From contig OZ024756.1 in the NCBI GenBank assembly GCA_964016885.1, positions 18,104,001 through 18,168,000 on the forward strand: 64,000 bases of DNA, given 5' to 3'. The notes beneath the pieces are model-generated. The model was not told the DNA's origin. It ran no database searches and saw nothing but the letters and a program-made list of their open reading frames with translations. Source of the stretch: Eledone cirrhosa (taxonomy: Eukaryota). Below are positions 6,731-56,325 of the stretch, piece after piece; position 1 is the stretch's first letter; every line of letters starts with the position of its first letter. Both the position numbers and the translations under genes were made by a program.

Positions 6731-6971
6731 AAATATATATAAAATATATAAAATAAAATATATATATATAAAAAAAATTTGACTTATTTATTTTATTTTA
6801 TTTTATTTTATTTTATTTTATTTTACATTACTCTGGAGTAACCAAACCAACCTGCGCACTTTGTCGAGTGCTCCAATCTGCATACTAAGGTGTTGGTATA
6901 CAACCAACATATACTCAAAATTTATATATATATATATATATTATTATGTAATAAACAACATAAGGCAATTA

Positions 6972-7031
6972 TTCCATTTACCAGTGGTTTCTTAAAAGCA
7001 AAAGATTTTGCTTTCAATCCTCAGAATGAAA
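6972..7031 (-). ncRNA. Type I hammerhead ribozyme motif (family 1)
   Basis: Minus strand: tttcatt CTGAGGA ttgaaagcaaaa-tc-ttttgcttttaa GAAAC cactg GTA aatggaa. Stems I, II and III all pair, and the cleavage triplet is GUA. Confidence 0.85.
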
Positions 7032-7082
7032 AAATCCTGGTCTGTTTATTGAATTTGAATTTTAAAAACAAAAATGCAATCT

Positions 7083-7421
7083 ATCATCATCATTTCATTT
7101 TACGTCCGCTTTTCCCTGCTTGCAAGGGTGGGACGGGAACTGATTTTTGGCTTGATTTCTACAGCTGGATGCCCTTCCTAACACCAACCTCATTTACAGT
7201 GAGTGCTGGGTGCTTTTTTGCCGTGGCACCTCCACGACCACTTTGCAGTGGAATGATAGGGACCCCAGTCCCTATCATCTCATTTCTACAGCTGAGTAAA
7301 CTGGAGCAATGTGAAATAAAGTGTCTTGCTCAAGGAAACAACACATCACCCGGTCTGAGAATTGAACTCACAACCTTTCGATTGCAAGGCCCTAACCCTA
7401 ACCACTAAGCCATGTGCCTCC
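7083..7421 (-). mobile_element. Full-length tRNA-derived SINE family A with RTE-type 3' tail
   Basis: A-box tggcttagtgg, B-box gagttcaattc, body ccttgagcaagacactt, and tail ggaagggcatccagc...ggacgtaaaatgatgat. Confidence 0.9.
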
Positions 7422-7449: not shown

Positions 7450-7960
7450 TAAAGAAAATGGGATACAGAAAGAGAGAAAGAGAGAGAGAAAACAAGAACA
7501 AGAATGATAGAAAGGGGAGAAAAAGAGAGAAAGAAAACAGGAAAGAGAGAAAGATAGAAAGAAGAGAGAGAGAGAGAGGAAGAAAAGTGACAGAGAGGAA
7601 GATAGAAAGAAAAGGGAGAGAGAGAGAGACAGAGAAAGAAAAGGGGGAGAGAGAGAAAGATAGAAAGAAAAGGGAGAGAGAGAGGAAGAGAAAGAAAAGG
7701 GAGAGAAAAAGATAGAAAGAAAAGGGAGGGAGAGAGAGAGACAGAGAAAGAAAAGGGAAAGAGAGAGGAAGATAGAAAGAAAAGGGAGAGAGAGAGGAAG
7801 ATAGAAAGAAAAGGGAGAGAGAAAGATAGAAAGAAAGAAATCAGGAAAGAGAGAGAGAGAGTGAGAGAAATATAGAAAAAAATAAAACAGGAAAGAGAGA
7901 AAGAGAGAGTGTGAGAGAAAGATAGAAAGAAAAGTGAGAGAGAGATTGAGAGATAGAAAG
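7450..7960. repeat. GA-rich satellite-like tract
   Basis: Repeated gatagaaagaaaagggagagag units. Confidence 0.9.
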
Positions 7961-7961
7961 A

Positions 7962-9612
7962 CAGCAATGGTGCTACTCCGGAGCAGTGGAAAACTGCCAG
8001 TGTCATTCCCCTGTTCAAAAAGGGCAACCGCATGTCACCTGTCAACTATCGTCCAGTCAGTCTTACTAGCTGTATGGCCAAACTGATGGAATCCTGTGTC
8101 AGAGAAACACTTTGGAACTTCTGGAGCTCTCACAGCCTCATCCGGCCATCACAGTTTGGATTTATCCCTAACTCCAGCTGCTGTGATCAGCTTATCGAGT
8201 TCCTTGAGGACATCACCCGGATCACTGACAGCGGCTCATGGGTGGATGTTGTTTACCTTGACTTTGCTAAGGCTTTTAATTCTGTGCCACACAAAAGACT
8301 TATGGCAAAACTCTCTGCAATGGGTGTGAGGGATGATCTTTTCGACTGGCTGAAATCCTTCATTCTCAGCCGAAGGGAAGTAGTCACGGTTCTAGGACAG
8401 CATTCTTCACCATATGAGATGTCATCTGGTGTACCACAGGGATCTGTTCTTGGTCCTCTTTTGTTTGTGGCATATATTAATGACATAGATGCCAACTTAC
8501 AGAATGCCACGGTACTAAAATATGCAGATGACATCAAGCTGTACCTTGAAATCAAAAGGACTGATCCTGAAATTTACAACTCTTTCCTACAATCAGACCT
8601 GGACACAATGCAGCAATGGATCACAGACTGGCAACTGAAGCTGGCTGTGGACAAGTGTACCACCATGCATTTTGGAAGGAAAAATCCAGCGTCCACATAC
8701 TCCCTCCACAACACTGACATCAAAAAGTCCTCTTGTGAACGTGACCTAGGCATTACTGTCAGCAACGATTTGCATTGGACAAAGCATGTCTCTAAGATTG
8801 TCAAGAAGGCCGAGGGTGTCTTGGCATCACTCAGCAAGACCTTTGTTAGCCGCTCTCCAGCCATCTATTTAAAACTGTATACAGCTATGGTGCGACCACA
8901 CTTGGAATTCGCATCATCAGTCTGGAACCCCTATCTTGCTCGGAACATTGACCTCCTGGAAACTGTTCAGAGACGTGCAACCAAGCGCATACCCTCCATC
9001 AGACACCTACCATACTCTGAACGCCTTGCTTCCCTGGGCATGGATTCATTGAAGCTCCGACGTCTGGCAGTGGACTTGGTGAATACCCACAAAGTTTTTA
9101 ACCATCTCGCCAACTGCAACCCTGAGCGCCTCTTTGATCTCCATGTGTCTAACACACGTGGACATGCCTACAAGATAAGAAAACAGCACAGCTCCCATGA
9201 CTTTCGCAGACATTTTTTCACGCTCAGAGTTGCTGAAACATGGAACAAACTGCCTGCGTCAATTGTTAGCTGCCGAGACACTGCATCCTTTAAGACACTC
9301 ATGCTTCCCGAAATACGCCAAAACTACACCTGATGTGCCCCTTCCATACACATGCACACATGTGTGCACTGTTCATTTTACTGATGTTTGTGCATTGCCC
9401 TATGTACTGTACATGCACTTTTTTGATGGGTTGTGGTGCACCTGGGCACTGTGCACAATATTTCATTATTGTTATTGTTATTATATCATGACTCATACAC
9501 TGTTTATTTTCCTGACATTTGTACATTATTCTATGTACTATACATGCACCTTTGATGAGTTGTAGTGCACCTGAGCACTGTACACAATAATTTCATTATT
9601 ATTATTATTATA
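7962..9612 (+). mobile_element. 5'-truncated CR1-clade LINE with tandemly duplicated 3'UTR and (ATT)n tail
   Basis: Reading frame is open from ~7963 (PEQWKTASVIPLFKKG). RT motifs are listed in the next feature. The 3'UTR unit gtagtgcacctgagcactgtacacaata is repeated. Confidence 0.95.
8032..9333 (+). CDS. CR1 ORF2 reverse transcriptase (truncated, no stops or frameshifts)
   Basis: NYRPVSLTS, QFGF, YLDFAKAFNSVPH, GVPQGSVLGPLLF, YADD, ERDLG, VRPHLE..SVWNP and TRGH motifs. Confidence 0.95.
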   Translation: MSPVNYRPVSLTSCMAKLMESCVRETLWNFWSSHSLIRPSQFGFIPNSSCCDQLIEFLEDITRITDSGSWVDVVYLDFAKAFNSVPHKRLMAKLSAMGVRDDLFDWLKSFILSRREVVTVLGQHSSPYEMSSGVPQGSVLGPLLFVAYINDIDANLQNATVLKYADDIKLYLEIKRTDPEIYNSFLQSDLDTMQQWITDWQLKLAVDKCTTMHFGRKNPASTYSLHNTDIKKSSCERDLGITVSNDLHWTKHVSKIVKKAEGVLASLSKTFVSRSPAIYLKLYTAMVRPHLEFASSVWNPYLARNIDLLETVQRRATKRIPSIRHLPYSERLASLGMDSLKLRRLAVDLVNTHKVFNHLANCNPERLFDLHVSNTRGHAYKIRKQHSSHDFRRHFFTLRVAETWNKLPASIVSCRDTASFKTLMLPEIRQNYT

Positions 9613-12274: not shown

Positions 12275-12780
12275 TGCTTGAGTGTTGAGTCTAACATCTG
12301 TAGTGTAGGTATACAAGGAACTATTTTGTTCCTACAGCAATTGCATGAGTGTTGAGTCTAACATTTTTAGTGTAGGTATACAAGGAACTATTTTGTTCCC
12401 ACAGCAATTGCATGAGTGCTGAGTCTAACATTTTTAGTGTAGGTATACAAGGAACTATTTTGTTCCTACAGCAATTGCATGAGTGCTGAGTCTAACATTT
12501 TTAGTGTAGGTATACAAGGAACTATTTTCTTCCCACAATATTGCATGAGTGCTGAGTCTAACATTTTTAGTGTAGGTATACAAGGAACTATTTTCTTCCC
12601 ACAATATTGCATGAGTGCTGTGTTTAACATCAGTAGTGTAAGTATACAAGGAACCATTTTGTTCCCACAATAATGCATGAGTGCTGAGTCTAACCTTTTT
12701 AGTGAAGGTATACAAGGAACTACTTTGTTCCAACATGCATGAGTGCTGAGTCTAACATCTTTAGTATAAGTATACAACAC
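12275..12780. repeat. Minisatellite, 66-bp unit, ~7.5 copies
   Basis: Unit gagtgctgagtctaacatttttagtgtaggtatacaaggaactattttgttcccacagcaattgcat. ORFs show a 22-aa period. Confidence 0.95.
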
Positions 12781-31860: not shown

Positions 31861-32101
31861 AACTGTTAAAATATTACTTGCACATCTTCATTAGATTTTA
31901 ACATTTTACTCTGATACACTAGCAGGTGGAAATGCTGCCTGTGTCCTGTGAGGTCATGGGACACATTTGATGGTTTATTTCATTATATATGTATATATAT
32001 GTGTGTGTGTTATGTATTTCCGTAGAAAATGTAAAGGAAAGTAGAGTGCTCTATCTATAGTACAGAGCTATTTCATTACATAATAAACAACACAATATAA
32101 T

Positions 32102-32175
32102 TATTCCATTACCAAAGGTTTCAGGAAGCTAGACGATCCTTACAGAAATGTCCAGTACGCTCATCAGATGAAATA
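32102..32175 (-). ncRNA. Type I hammerhead ribozyme motif (family 1)
   Basis: tatttcat CTGATGA (long, partly decayed stem II) GAAAC ctttg GTA atggaata. Stem I is 8 bp and stem III is 3 bp. Confidence 0.7.
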
Positions 32176-32290
32176 GTTATGAAATAGTTAAATAAAAGAA
32201 ATATATATATATGTATATGTGTATATATATGTGTGTGTATATATATATATATATATATTTGTGTGTGTGTATATATATATATGTATATGT

Positions 32291-32470
32291 GTGGATTGGC
32301 AGTATCGGTAGAGGGTCGGACGCCATGCTTTCCAGCATAGTTACATCCCTTTACGATCTGAGTTCAAATCCCGCCGAGGTTGACTTTGCCTTTCATCCTT
32401 ACGGGGTCGATAAAATAAAGTACCAGTAATGCACTGAGTATTTGCTGGCCTTGTGCCTAAAGTAGAAACA
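32291..32470 (+). mobile_element. SINE family B
   Basis: Full consensus match. Confidence 0.9.
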
Positions 32471-32477
32471 ATTATAT

Positions 32478-32825
32478 GGAGGCACATGGCTTAGTGGTTA
32501 GAGCATTGGCCTTGCAATAGAAAGGTTGTGAGTTCAATTCTCAGACCGGGCAATGTGTTGTTTCCTTGAGCAAGGCACTTTATTTCACATTGCTCCACTT
32601 TACTCAGCTGTAGAAATGAGATGATAGGGACTGGGGTCCCTATCATTCCACTACAAAGTGGTCGTGGAGGTGCCACGGAAAAAAAGCACCCAGCACTCAC
32701 TGTAAATGAGGTTGGTGTTAGGAAGGGCATCCAGCTGTAGAAATCAAGCCAGAATCAGTTCCTGTCCCACCCTTGCAAGCAGGGAAAAGTGGACGTAAAA
32801 TGAAATGATGATGAAATGAATGATG
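32478..32825 (+). mobile_element. Full-length SINE family A
   Basis: Full consensus match. Confidence 0.9.
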
Positions 32826-33649: not shown

Positions 33650-33979
33650 TATCATCATTTTACGTCCGCTTTTCCCTCCTTGCCAGGGTGAGACGGGAAC
33701 TGATTCTGGCTTGATTTCTACAGCTGGATGCCCTTCCTAACACCAACCTCATTTACAGTGAGTGCTGGGTGCTTTTTTTCCGTGGCACCTCCACGACCAC
33801 TTTGCAGTGGAATGATATGGACCCCAGTCCTATCATCTCATTTCTACAGCTGAGTAAACTGGAGTAATGTGAAATAAAGTGTCTTGCTCAAGGAAACAAC
33901 ACATCACCCGGTCTGAGAATTGAACTCACAACCTTTCAATTGCAAGGCCAATGCTCTAACCACTAAGCCATGTGCCTTC
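33650..33979 (-). mobile_element. Full-length SINE family A
   Basis: Full consensus match. Confidence 0.9.
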
Positions 33980-34379: not shown

Positions 34380-34670
34380 GTTGTGAGTTCAATTCTCAGA
34401 CCAGTGGATGTGTTGTTTCCTTGAGCAAGACACTTTATTTCACATTGCTCCAGTTTACTCAGCTGTAGGAATGAGATGATAGGGACTGGGGTCCATATCA
34501 TTTCACTGCAAAGTGGTCGTGGAGGTGCCACGGAAAAAAAAAAAGCAACCAGCACTCACTGTAAATGAGGTTGGTGTTAGGAAGGGCATCCAGCTGTAGA
34601 AATCAAGCCAGAATCAGTTCCCGTTCCACCCTTGCAAGCAGGGAAATGCGGACGTAAAATGATGATGATA
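34380..34670 (+). mobile_element. 5'-truncated SINE family A
   Basis: Begins just before the B-box. Confidence 0.9.
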
Positions 34671-37196: not shown

Positions 37197-37678
37197 GTTA
37201 GTAGATTATTTTTTATTTCTTTGATAGATCCAGTTTTTAGTTGAATTTATTGTTCACCAAATATAACATTAACCAGCTACCAAATATATATGTAACATCT
37301 GTATGTAGGTATCGATTGACCTGATCCCTGTCCAATCAAACCAAGAAAACAATGATTCCATTGGTCTTTCCATTGCTGATACTATCTGTCAGTCACAACT
37401 CCTGACAGAAAGAGCAATGTGAAATAAAGTGTCTTGCTCAAAGACAACACACCACCTGGTCTGGGAATCAAACTCACAACCTCACAATTATGAATCCAAT
37501 TCTCTCACCACTAAGCTACACACCTTCACTTATAAACAAACAATTTTTATCCAAATACTTACTGTCATTTTTTTTTTTTTTCTGTAGGCTGCTGAAGCTG
37601 TTATGATTAAACTGAGTTCATTTATCACTGTATGACTTGAGCTGTGTTCACTGCCATATTTACTGCATTTATCACTGT

Positions 37679-39562
37679 ATGAGCAATGCTACTTCCAAGG
37701 ATATGGCCGAGAGGATGTTAAGATCTACGGCAGATGGTGAAATAGCCACCCCATCAAATGGCTATACAACCGAGTGCAGCAATGATACTGAAATGGACCA
37801 AAAAGACGCACCAAGGAAATCACAGTCTTATAACAGATTGGGCAGTGAGTGTTACAGTAATTCACCACTGCCATACCAAAGTGCTCTTAGTGATAACAAA
37901 ACATCCAAAAACTCTAACAACCCTGATCAAGTGAATCAAACTAATTCTCTCAGTTCATCTAGCTTTAATTCCAAACTCAACTCACAACCACCTTACCATT
38001 TGGATTCACCACTAAGATCTTGTCAGAAACAAAGCGATTCCAGGTTTCTTCGTTGTGAACTCTGCAACAAACTCTTCTCAGAAGACGATGAAGACACACA
38101 CATTTCCAAAAAGAAAATTACCATTTGCCAAGATTGCAACCGAAAATATTCGGCCCTGGAAGATGGTGCTGACAAAAAACCTCTGCCTCCTTCTCCAAAA
38201 GAGGTTGCTAATACCTCCGTGCTCCCTACAACACACCCACCAAAATCAGTTTATGATAATTTTAACAACATACCCTCCAGAAACAGTAAAGAAATCCAAA
38301 ATGGTTCCCAAACAGCAGTGTTTGACACTAATACAAAAACAGAACAACTAATAAAAAACATAAAACAAGAACCTCTAAGTGAAAACGATGGTAATTTATC
38401 GACCAGTGTAAAACTACCGCTTAAACATAATTTTCAATCATCTTGTTCATTTATCTTGACCACTAATTTAAAGCCATGCATCAAACGCAATCAAGAAGTG
38501 AAAAATGAGAGGAAAGACTCTATTCCCAGTGAAAATAACCAAAATAAAAAAGCTAGACTTGGAGATCCACACCATATTAAACATCTACCTGCAGATCAAG
38601 AGCAACAGGTTGCTGTTGATGTAAGTAAAAATACTGCTATTGGTTCATCTACATTATCAAAAGTGCATAACAAAGAGGGCTGCTATGAAAATCATTTGAA
38701 AGTTGAGCCTCCAAATGTGTCTGATTGTGCAAAGGAAGTTATTAACAAACCAGTTGATATAAAACCAAAAAGCACAAGCGAAGACGATTTCAAATTTAAG
38801 CTTCCTTCTGTTTCTTCAAGTTATTCAACTGGGAAAAATGTTTCGAAAAATAAAAGTGATTCCACTTCTAATACTTACACATTTGAGGGGAGTATGATGT
38901 GGAACCCTGTGACAAATGTCCCTTCAACACAGGAGAAACAAAAATGTGACAAGAAAGAAAGAATCTCAGAAAATGACTCTCAATCAAAGAATGAAACGAA
39001 AGATGATGAAAGTACGTACAGTTGTGAAGGGAGTCTCTTTATCAAACCAGTCCTTCCAAATGAATTTGCTTTCGAAGGAACGTTATACATAAAACCTGAT
39101 TCACCTCATTTTCCTCACACTGTTGTTGACTCACCTCCGGCCACATCCACTGCTAGTCCAACTAATAAAATAGTCAACATTCAATCAGTGTTCACTAGTT
39201 CCGGTCAAGTTATCAACAGTGTAACATTTCCTGCAAAAGATCAAAGCAGTAAAGTAGTCGCCAACAGTCAAAGATTGCCTACCAGTGTATGTAGAACCTC
39301 CTCCTCTTCTTCATCCTGTGCCAGAACGACAACCACCAACAGCACCGTTGTTCCTCGAATGACAAGCAACATCCCCACATCAGTACGAAAGGAGGAGAAA
39401 GTCGTACACACACCCAATGAGAAGAAATGCCTGCCGGTTAGGAAACAGGCTCTGAATTCGGGAAGTGTAGGCGGACATACTGACTTCAGTGTTAAATCCA
39501 TTCTCAGTACCCCAGATCGGAGAGGAACAGCGGGGAATTCTGGGATGTCTCAGGAACAGTAA
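37679..39562 (+). CDS. ~627-aa S/T/K/N-rich putative nuclear regulator with C4 zinc-knuckle, SUMO sites and eh1 motif
   Basis: Long non-repetitive ORF in an exon starting at 37588 (T-tract then TAG acceptor). Motifs CELC-x20-CQDC, IKQE, LKVE, KKAR and FSVKSIL. It may continue via a weak donor at 39559. Confidence 0.85.
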   Translation: MSNATSKDMAERMLRSTADGEIATPSNGYTTECSNDTEMDQKDAPRKSQSYNRLGSECYSNSPLPYQSALSDNKTSKNSNNPDQVNQTNSLSSSSFNSKLNSQPPYHLDSPLRSCQKQSDSRFLRCELCNKLFSEDDEDTHISKKKITICQDCNRKYSALEDGADKKPLPPSPKEVANTSVLPTTHPPKSVYDNFNNIPSRNSKEIQNGSQTAVFDTNTKTEQLIKNIKQEPLSENDGNLSTSVKLPLKHNFQSSCSFILTTNLKPCIKRNQEVKNERKDSIPSENNQNKKARLGDPHHIKHLPADQEQQVAVDVSKNTAIGSSTLSKVHNKEGCYENHLKVEPPNVSDCAKEVINKPVDIKPKSTSEDDFKFKLPSVSSSYSTGKNVSKNKSDSTSNTYTFEGSMMWNPVTNVPSTQEKQKCDKKERISENDSQSKNETKDDESTYSCEGSLFIKPVLPNEFAFEGTLYIKPDSPHFPHTVVDSPPATSTASPTNKIVNIQSVFTSSGQVINSVTFPAKDQSSKVVANSQRLPTSVCRTSSSSSSCARTTTTNSTVVPRMTSNIPTSVRKEEKVVHTPNEKKCLPVRKQALNSGSVGGHTDFSVKSILSTPDRRGTAGNSGMSQEQ

Positions 39563-55289: not shown

Positions 55290-55978
55290 AGTCAAATGTA
55301 GAAGATATATGTATATATATAGAGAGAAAGAACCATATATCCAGAGAAAACAGTATATTGTACATATACTAAATACATATTACAGAGAAGAATATGTACT
55401 CAGGATGTAATCAATAGAGGCCCTATAGCGCTATTTCATATTCTGTAGACTGTAATTTAAAATCAATCTGTAATCAGTTAAGGGGTATAGTCTATAGTAT
55501 TCTAGTAGAAATATAGAAGTAAAAATCGTACATGATATACTTGCAGAGACTTATTATTGCTCTGGATAATGTCTATTGAGAAGCACATAATTCTAACATA
55601 TTTAATGTTACATTTGTATGAATATATATATAATCTAGCTGTCGAAACTGCTGGAGCTCAGCTGTTGGGGTCCTGACTTTTTTTTTCATATATATAAGCA
55701 GGAACAAAGTCTGAAGGTTGCATCATATATAAACTTTATTCACATATGTCAATTGTTTCTATATCGATCAGCTCCTGATGACCAGAGCCTGACTTTGCAT
55801 TAGCAGCTCATCAGGTATACAGGTTTATATGTGCACGACACATGATGTAACCTTGAGACTGCTAGTTACAGCTGCCCCTAGCCCTTAGCTACACTTTGTG
55901 GACCTTTCAACTGCACTGAGTGCTACACCTATCTACTATATATATATTTGATTAGTAATGAACAACACAATACAATTA

Positions 55979-56049
55979 TTCCATTACCCAAGGTTTCACG
56001 AAGGCAGGCGACCTCAACAGAGGTGTCCGAAGTCGTTCATCAGAAGGAA
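55979..56049 (-). ncRNA. Type I hammerhead ribozyme motif (family 1)
   Basis: ttcctt CTGATGA acga..acctc-tgtt-gaggt..tcgt GAAAC cttgg GTA atggaa. One mismatch in stem I. Confidence 0.75.
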
Positions 56050-56325
56050 AATTTAATCTATATATATATATATATATATATGTGTGTATGAAAAGGCAAA
56101 CTAAAATAATTAAGCAAACAATACAGTACAATAAAGAAATATATTACTTTTACACCTGATATAGTAGGAAAAGTGTCTTAATATTTTGGACACTAAACCT
56201 TCATCAGAAAATAGAATGTATGTTTATATATATATATATATATCAAAGGTATATATTGAGTTAGAAACTCAAAATAGTCTCTTACAATTAAGTTCAAGGA
56301 AATAGATTTTTCCGAGCCACATATC

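What the first reader, a model, noticed from the sequence alone, without database searches (positions are those of the whole stretch)
6860..7031. Family-1 hammerhead: conserved core and 3' flank but exchangeable stem II
Copies at 6972, 32102 and 55979 share GAAACC-nnn-GGTA-(A)ATGGAATAATT, then TGTTGTT(T/C)ATTA, and an AGCACTC motif further 3' (plus strand GAGTGCT at ~6866, ~32044 and ~55918). Stem II differs: a clean ~11-12 bp hairpin at 6972 versus a ~40-nt bulged hairpin in the other two. Structure kept while sequence is swapped argues for selection on RNA folding. The 6972 copy looks catalytically intact and is the best test candidate.
Basis: partly seen in the sequence, partly recalled or inferred. 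Interest (0 to 1): 0.75.

Follow-up and report, generated by a model that had tools for sequence, protein, structure and literature searches.

The report
Hammerhead stem evolving in Penelope lineage
These three motifs are broken end pieces of a known kind of animal jumping gene that carries a predicted self-cutting RNA, and their different hairpins were likely not swapped in but changed step by step, with the intermediate forms still lying in the genome.

Summary
The three motifs are real type I hammerhead folds. They belong to a dispersed family with 6,627 exact pattern matches (control 0). They are truncated pseudo-LTR ends of a Hydra-clade Penelope-like retrotransposon. Full-length relatives of the 6972 type carry a 710-aa RT-plus-endonuclease ORF with the Hydra motifs and are up to 99.95% identical. 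Selection on folding is supported: 11 of 11 core bases are invariant across 12 subfamilies, and stems I and II change on both sides. Stem II was not exchanged. Intermediate forms link the long bulged hairpin to the short one, in the same order on a tail tree and an endonuclease tree. AGCACTC is homologous only at 32044; at 6866 it is the opposite-strand tail of a neighbouring element. Inserted copies decay neutrally. The lone 6972 copy would probably cleave poorly as a monomer. Cleavage is untested. The scan noted Hydra hammerheads and twin tail hairpins in this genome before, on other DNA. Verdict: new member of a known kind, with an unusually complete record of compensatory RNA evolution.

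The parts
6940..7084 (-). Copy 1: 5'-truncated pseudo-LTR fragment of the youngest subfamily (class A), ending at the short 3' end point
   Evidence: 94-95% identical to the pLTR of full-length element L104 over 146-168 nt; sequence
6972..7031 (-). Type I hammerhead of copy 1: stem I 7031-7025 with 6978-6972, core CUGAGGA 7024-7018, stem II 7017-6992, GAAA 6991-6988, stem III 6988-6980, A17 at 6979; predicted cut between 6979 and 6978
   Evidence: numbering and cut site from recalled hammerhead consensus
6924..6940 (.). (TA)n tract shared by copy 1 and the neighbouring element, which meet it from opposite sides
6780..6925 (+). Left boundary approximate
   Evidence: 40 of 40 scored matches are 95-100% identical (one is the window itself); 4 of 7 other loci (L248, L249, L252, L253) show that family's own complete hammerhead upstream on the same strand
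32002..32181 (-). Copy 2: class C fragment with hammerhead (32173-32104) and the full tail to the long 3' end point
   Evidence: 87.8% identical to L205 over 180 nt
32044..32068 (-). Tail hairpin GCUCU...AGAGC followed by ACUC: the only homologous AGCACTC of the three
55948..56057 (-). Copy 3: class B1 fragment with hammerhead (56049-55979), ending at the short 3' end point; one U-U mismatch in stem I, and the predicted best fold is not the hammerhead
   Evidence: 93% identical to L053 over 114 nt
55918..55924 (-). AGCACTC in other DNA beyond the (TA)n tract; not the family's tail

Best explanation
The three motifs are truncated end pieces of one clan of Hydra-clade Penelope-like retrotransposons, each with a type I hammerhead fold that is predicted to cut its own RNA, likely as a dimer, and their stem IIs are related forms of one hairpin that likely changed by compensating point mutations and loop loss rather than by exchange. 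Shown: full-length class A elements run pLTR hammerhead, about 226 nt of 5' UTR, a 710-aa ORF, a 1.8-2.2-kb microsatellite-rich 3' region, hammerhead and tail. Copies abut (TA)n, stop at one of two fixed 3' ends, are 5'-truncated and often sit as back-to-back pairs. Inferred: the hammerhead in each repeat cuts tandem read-through transcripts, with two ribozymes pairing through their near-palindromic stem III and possibly helped by the element's own protein. The enzyme then nicks (TA)n and copies the RNA from just before one of two AGCUC...GAGCACUCU hairpins. Selection acts on the few transcribed masters; copies such as the three in the window decay neutrally.
For: ORF link: 29 of 30 endonuclease loci have the family motif within 1.5 kb downstream; 16 of 16 long-ORF regions have it after the stop and 10 of 16 also just before the ORF. 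A long-stem (class B) arm joins a decayed ORF that is 72% identical in protein. Hydra motifs RWK, DKT, CxCx5C, CxxC and CxH are present and DKG/DKA is absent (definition). Ladder: stem II labels need 12 changes on a tail-only tree of 60 copies (minimum 11, shuffled mean 40.6, 0 of 200 shuffles as low). Endonuclease DNA identity to the current master rises B 73-74%, I1 81.5%, I2 82.3%, A2 90.3%, A 95-100% along a ladder tree. Pairing: on 24 real copies 88.8% of cells pair (33-51% when slid); 6 of 7 stem I pairs and 8 of 12 stem II pairs change on both sides. Wobble and mismatch intermediates are captured. An internal duplicate in class A masters loses pairs without compensation (hammerhead fold -3.6 and +0.5 against -10.4 kcal/mol). 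The dimer fold is 5.9-9.0 kcal/mol better than two monomers. Ends: 76 long, 55 short, 10 other of 141 copies; 10 of 13 back-to-back pairs have one of each.
Against: No cleavage was measured. Rfam hammerhead models do not match. Pfam and PDB sequence searches found no RT or GIY-YIG family for P0003, so the domains rest on motifs and a by-eye comparison with Hydra-1_Obim. The pair next to the core (10.1-11.1) is unpaired in 13 of 24 rows and is never G-C, unlike the conserved G-C of minimal PLE hammerheads in PMC4209133. Intermediate classes are thin (B2 2, I1 4, I2 3, I3 4, A2 5 copies) and were labelled by likeness to references I chose. I1 is not one clade, and the tail tree has only 104 columns with an unsettled bootstrap. 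Only 5 non-A loci on the endonuclease tree carry a stem II label, none for classes C, D, E, F or B1. The shuffle control ignores relatedness. In the anole PLE, hammerhead mutants did not reduce insertion in vitro (PMC11167929).
Confidence: 0.85

Rival explanations
1. The fold is kept but cleavage does not matter for transposition: the hammerhead is a protein-binding or folding element, or a passenger.
For: Catalytic mutants of the anole PLE hammerhead insert normally in vitro, and no RNA-seq reads ended at the cut site (PMC11167929). Craig et al. raise a parasitic role. The 10.1-11.1 pair is often broken.
Against: All 11 core bases and a cleavable-type A17 are kept in 12 of 12 terminal subfamily majorities while the surrounding helices turn over. 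G17 appears only in internal copies (24 of 47 internal-type, 0 of 39 class A/A2). The stem III loop moved to better dimer pairing in two separate branches.
Confidence: 0.2
2. One reading: stem II is a module exchanged between elements by recombination or template switching.
For: End members look unrelated by eye. Fold-back inversions are common at these elements' 5' junctions and could rebuild hairpins.
Against: Both arms align without gaps from class F to class A, with only the loop shortened. Intermediates exist. Labels follow the tail tree and the ORF tree.
Confidence: 0.07
3. The family is a non-autonomous retrozyme or SINE rather than part of a coding element.
For: Most copies are short and non-coding; tblastn found no ORF remnant in the window.
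Against: Contiguous ORF-bearing elements exist for classes A and B. The copies are not short tandem arrays as retrozymes are (PMC7229834). Classes C, D, E, F and B1 were not linked to an ORF here, so this stays open for copies 32102 and 55979.
Confidence: 0.05
4. The individual copies in the window are kept by the host as functional ribozymes.
For: Copy 6972 has every core base and pairs in all three stems.
Against: It belongs to the youngest subfamily, where intact cores are the rule (4,299 exact). Per copy, core and flank diverge equally. Copy 55979 has a stem I mismatch and misfolds in prediction.
Confidence: 0.02

Closest known systems
Hydra clade of C-terminal endonuclease-bearing Penelope-like elements, e.g. 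Hydra-1_Obim (Craig et al. 2021, PMC8557442; passages, section 11 and supplement parts read)
   Same: Single ORF of about 710 aa with RWK, DKT, CxCx5C, CxxC and CxH; (TA)n targets; hammerhead in the pLTR with an odd-length palindromic stem III and often a mismatch next to the core; partial tandems, inverted 5' copies, one-sided tail. Hydra-2_Amil shows the same GCTC...GAGCACT tail motif.
   Different: A different family: its hammerhead is not in File S2. Repeat unit about 4.2-4.6 kb against under 3 kb, because of a microsatellite-rich 3' region. Stem II spans 26-39 nt here; the listed Hydra stem IIs are 3-7 bp. Class A masters carry a second, decayed hammerhead inside. The one-sided tail is about 65-70 nt against 30-40.
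Minimal type I hammerheads of metazoan PLEs (Cervera and de la Pena 2014, PMC4209133; parts 1-2 of 4 read)
   Same: Type I topology, palindromic stem III suited to dimers, long helix II, thousands of dispersed single copies, opposite-strand pairs 100-700 bp apart, many consensus families with compensatory changes.
   Different: Has a 3-bp stem III rather than none; lacks the G10.1-C11.1 pair with a bulged base before it. That paper found the high variability hard to explain by mutation and selection at the DNA level; here it resolves into an ordered series.
Poseidon element of Anolis, PAc (Frangieh et al. 2024, PMC11167929; parts 1-2 of 4 read)
   Same: Two internal reverse-transcription start sites that define the tail; AT-rich targets; hammerhead upstream of the start sites.
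   Different: Other clade. In PAc the ORF starts inside the hammerhead; here the ATG lies about 226 nt after the cut site.
Animal non-LTR retrozymes (PMC7229834, passages; bioRxiv 10.64898/2026.07.22.740005, part 1 of 5)
   Same: Type I hammerheads, dimer cleavage, link to PLE pLTRs.
   Different: Retrozymes are non-coding tandem units of about 300 bp; classes A and B here are ends of coding elements.

Membership tests
Type I hammerhead ribozyme | Core CUGANGA, GAAA and U-H around three helices, helix I open | tested here: met
   All three window copies; 11 of 11 core bases invariant in 12 class majorities
Type I hammerhead ribozyme | Helices I and II supported by compensatory change | tested here: met
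   14 of 22 pairs change on both sides; slid controls 3-7. Relatedness not corrected; R-scape not run
Type I hammerhead ribozyme | Match to an Rfam hammerhead model | tested here: not met
   (E<=10) and the 150 rows shown. A library test, not a defining feature of the fold
Type I hammerhead ribozyme | Site-specific self-cleavage | not testable with these tools
   Needs in vitro transcription
Minimal PLE hammerhead (Cervera 2014 consensus) | G10.1-C11.1 pair with a bulged base after A9 | tested here: not met
   A-U 4, U-A 4, G-U 3, unpaired 13 of 24. Several Hydra hammerheads in Craig File S2 also lack it
Minimal PLE hammerhead (Cervera 2014 consensus) | Palindromic stem III allowing a dimer | tested here: met
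   Self-duplex -5.1 to -8.2 kcal/mol against +0.4 for the hairpin; prediction only
Endonuclease-bearing PLE | Single ORF with RT and C-terminal GIY-YIG, flanked by pseudo-LTRs in partial tandems | tested here: met
   YRDD at 346 and VVY...YVG at 574. No Pfam or PDB hit, so domain names rest on motifs
Endonuclease-bearing PLE | 5' truncation, inverted 5' copy, one-sided tail | tested here: met
Hydra clade | RWK and DKT motifs; CxCx5C linker; CxxC and CxH; no DKG/DKA | tested here: met
   on P0003 against the definition
Hydra clade | (TA)n insertion | tested here: met
   131 of 141 copies fall in the two end classes, 129 of them at a TA/CA run
Hydra clade | RT phylogeny within the Hydra clade | not tested
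   Reference proteins seen only in the paper's supplement; compared by eye
Hydra clade | Length under 3 kb (typical, not defining) | tested here: not met
   Hammerhead-to-hammerhead 4.2-4.6 kb
Naiad clade | N-terminal endonuclease, DKA motif | tested here: not met
   Endonuclease motifs are C-terminal; no DKA
Non-LTR retrozyme | Non-coding short tandem units with a hammerhead in each | tested here: not met
   Classes A and B are ORF-linked; classes C and B1 not linked either way

The most novel reading that the evidence does not exclude
The second hammerhead inside the young masters is not debris but a built-in partner. It keeps an intact catalytic core while one sublineage has fixed an uncuttable G at the cleavage position, so it would pair with the terminal ribozyme of the same transcript and cut it without being cut itself: a one-way, in-cis dimer that frees the element from needing a tandem neighbour. 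For: cores exact in 42 of 47 internal-type copies, G17 in 24 of 47, mixed dimer fold 6.9-7.8 kcal/mol better than the two monomers. Against: its stems I and II are weakened without compensation, its stem III palindrome is eroded, and one full-length element (L102) carries a further change in it.
Probability: 0.1. Interest if true: 0.65.

Novelty: new member of a known kind. Interest (0 to 1): 0.36.

Why it matters
As a class this is known: PLE pseudo-LTRs carry hammerheads in thousands of copies. The added value is a dated series. One lineage left copies of each stage of its ribozyme, so single wobble and mismatch steps of compensatory evolution can be read in order and synthesised. This bears on an open point in PMC4209133, which found the variability of PLE hammerheads hard to explain by DNA-level mutation and selection. 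The lineage also has intact, near-identical ORFs (99.95%), so it offers a young Hydra-clade element for testing two open questions: what the hammerhead does for a PLE, and whether the twin tail hairpins set the two reverse-transcription start sites.

Tried and rejected
Rfam: no hammerhead match. Pfam: no family for P0001, P0002 or P0003 above cut-off; PDB sequence search nothing meaningful; the protein atlas gave no answer. No RNA holder listed for the element's 5' region; two runs of unknown kind laid as contigs only repeat the two end points and say nothing on expression. No ORF remnant of the family in the window. First idea that class A is a non-autonomous 1.4-kb retrozyme was dropped when the ORF was found upstream. 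Naiad identity considered and dropped (C-terminal endonuclease). The idea that a fold-back rebuilt the short stem's 5' arm was dropped as unnecessary once class B2 showed that arm arising by point changes. P0001 (L039), a 37%-identical Hydra-type ORF beside a long-stem copy, is separated from it by (TA)n and was not taken as its parent. An all-against-all blast timed out. Lunse et al. 2017 on dimeric PLE hammerhead variants is not held; I saw only a review's account of it, so it may already describe this core variant. Paper searches listed no study of this family or of stepwise stem II change in a PLE lineage; the library lacks most subscription papers, Repbase and Dfam were not searchable, and the bioRxiv preprint's supplements were not seen. 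Fold z-scores of the tail hairpins are modest (-2.0, -1.5, and 0.0 for an older variant), so the hairpins rest on the repeated motif and position, not on energy.

Full report
Observation. On the minus strand the window holds three type I hammerhead folds with cores at 7024, 32167 and 56043. Each has CUGANGA, stem II, GAAA, a 3-bp stem III with a 3-nt loop, A at position 17 and a 6-7-bp stem I. The shared 3' motif matches exactly 6,627 times in the 3.0-Gb genome and the reversed control 0 times. Rfam does not detect them. The genome is an AT-microsatellite-rich animal genome; the closest described protein, by eye, is from an octopus, so a cephalopod host is inferred.

What the copies are. Of the first 30 loci, many are flanked by (TA)n, cut short at the 5' side, or paired back to back. 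Going upstream led to an ORF ending about 440 nt before a family motif. A search with its C-terminal part scored 150 of 68,830 candidates, all 89-100% identical; 29 of the 30 loci fetched have the family motif within 1.5 kb downstream. I fetched 16 regions chosen for long open frames: all 16 have the motif about 1.8-2.2 kb after the stop and 10 also have it just before the ORF. Ten ORFs checked run from ATG to a single stop and are 96.1-99.95% identical to L104. The protein P0003 (710 aa) has RWK, DKT, YRDD, CxCx5C, a VVY...YVG pair, CxxC and CxH, and no DKG/DKA, which is the Hydra-clade definition of Craig et al. (PMC8557442, section 11). Pfam and PDB sequence searches were blank. Copy 6972 is 94-95% identical to this element's pLTR. 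For the long-stem type, a class B arm is joined in inverted orientation to a decayed ORF 72% identical in protein, with a second class B copy about 4.8 kb downstream. Classes C (copy 32102) and B1 (copy 55979) were not linked to an ORF.

Is stem II exchanged? To avoid selecting on the ribozyme I sampled by the tail motif (8,295 matches, control 0) and read 68 distinct copies from the first part of contig C1; 31 reach an exact 5' core, and most others are cut or inverted before it. Across all loci fetched, 204 hammerhead-like hits were labelled by stem II; 10 were unclassified and dropped, 47 are internal-type, 147 fall in 12 terminal classes. The classes form a series. From B through B2, I1, I2, I3 and A2 to A both arms align without gaps and only the loop shortens. 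Single steps are visible: a U-U mismatch becomes A-U, then an A-C mismatch, then G-C; a G-C becomes G-U, then A-U; C-G becomes U-A. A tree of the 3' tail alone (60 of 77 full-tail copies, A and B capped at 12) needs 12 label changes where 11 is the minimum and shuffles need 40.6; I1 is a grade rather than a clade, and support is rough. A tree of 600 nt of endonuclease DNA from 33 loci is a ladder in the same order, with identity to the current master of 73-74% (two B loci), 81.5% (I1), 82.3% (I2), 90.3% (A2) and 95-100% (A); only these five non-A loci carry a label, and the root was set by hand. The direction old-to-young is inferred from intact near-identical ORFs in A and stops in B. Exchange is therefore not needed.

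Selection on folding. Across the 12 class majorities all 11 core bases are invariant, against 25 of 83 tail columns outside the search pattern (p=9e-6); the filter allowed up to one and two mismatches in the two core halves, so a fixed core change would have shown. On 24 real copies, two per class, 88.8% of cells pair against 33-51% for slid partners, and 14 of 22 pairs change on both sides; the shuffle control ignores relatedness. A duplicate hammerhead inside class A masters loses pairs without compensation, and one sublineage has G17, which by the recalled NUH rule is not cut. So selection acts on the terminal ribozyme of active masters.

The AGCACTC motif. In the family it is the 3' arm of a tail hairpin. 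In 8 of 8 full-length 5' UTRs an AGCTC...GAGCACTCT unit occurs twice, and copies end a few bases before one or the other: 55 short, 76 long, 10 other of 141; 10 of 13 back-to-back pairs have one of each (same two points). The motif also stands in the Hydra-2_Amil tail. At 6866 and 55918 the motif is outside the family. At 6866 it is the sense-strand GAGTGCT of another hammerhead-bearing family that meets copy 1 at the same (TA)n tract; 8 of 65 short or other copies have such a foreign motif nearby (two own-tail hits removed from 10). The finding's span 6860-7031 thus joins two elements.

Mechanism. Shown: anatomy, ORF link, end points, conservation pattern. Predicted: stem III is unstable as a hairpin (+0.4 kcal/mol) but pairs between two molecules (-5.1 to -8.2), and the dimer fold beats two monomers by 5.9-9.0 kcal/mol. 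From papers: single minimal PLE hammerheads did not cleave while dimers cleaved weakly (PMC4209133); the anole PLE hammerhead cleaved only with protein, was not needed for insertion in vitro, and reverse transcription began at two internal sites (PMC11167929). Inferred: cleavage of tandem transcripts as dimers, nicking of (TA)n, copying from just before either hairpin. I put 0.85 on the overall reading and about 0.65 on real cleavage in a dimer or protein-aided form.

Verdict. A new member of a known kind. What lifts it above routine is the ordered record of compensatory change in a young, apparently still intact lineage. Interest 0.36.

Noticed in passing
window 6780-6925 (+); L248-L254: Tail of a second hammerhead-bearing family; full copies show CUGAAGA, a 9-10-bp stem II and a GAAAUAUAU stem III, about 100 nt upstream of a GCAC...GUGC hairpin and a (TA)n end. 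Parent ORF not sought.
   Followed up: partly
L104:2850-3004 (5' UTR of full-length elements): Twin AGCTC...GAGCACTCT hairpin units, each a few bases past one of the two 3' end points; candidate start signals for reverse transcription.
   Followed up: partly
L100-L115, 330-530 nt after the stop codon: Internal second hammerhead in class A masters with intact core, weakened stems and G17 in one sublineage.
   Followed up: partly
L102:5340-6900 and other class A elements: The 3' region of the element is 1.3-2.1 kb of degenerate TA/TG microsatellite that is copied as part of the element, so the element spreads microsatellite-like DNA.
   Followed up: no
window 59307-59278, 22410-22364, 55814-55751, 59495-59430, 19987-19934 (all minus): Further hammerhead-like motifs of other families, from a generic pattern; several sit beside (TA)n. 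Not verified.
   Followed up: no
L039:5112-6710 (P0001): A second Hydra-type ORF family, 37% identical to P0003.
   Followed up: partly
L042:1841-2458: A different PLE-like ORF end with a Pfam GIY-YIG hit (E=7.5e-07).
   Followed up: no
window 7060-7075 (-), upstream of copy 1: A T-rich stretch about 50 nt before the core can pair with the 5' arm of the short stem II as well as its own 3' arm does; a possible alternative fold, or just low complexity. Seen by eye, not computed.
   Followed up: no
window 7957-9333 (+): 458-aa open frame that looks like a CR1-type LINE reverse transcriptase (label recalled).
   Followed up: no
window 37616-39562 (+): 648-aa open frame with a CxxC...CxxC zinc-finger-like stretch; probably a long host exon.
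   Followed up: no
window 7095-7300, 32280-32480, 32650-32750, 33700-33800, 34500-34600: Other dispersed repeats (SINE-like) with several copies in the window; one also holds an unrelated AGCACTC.
   Followed up: no
window 12410-12750 (-): Tandem repeat of about 66 nt containing AGCACTC in each unit.
   Followed up: no
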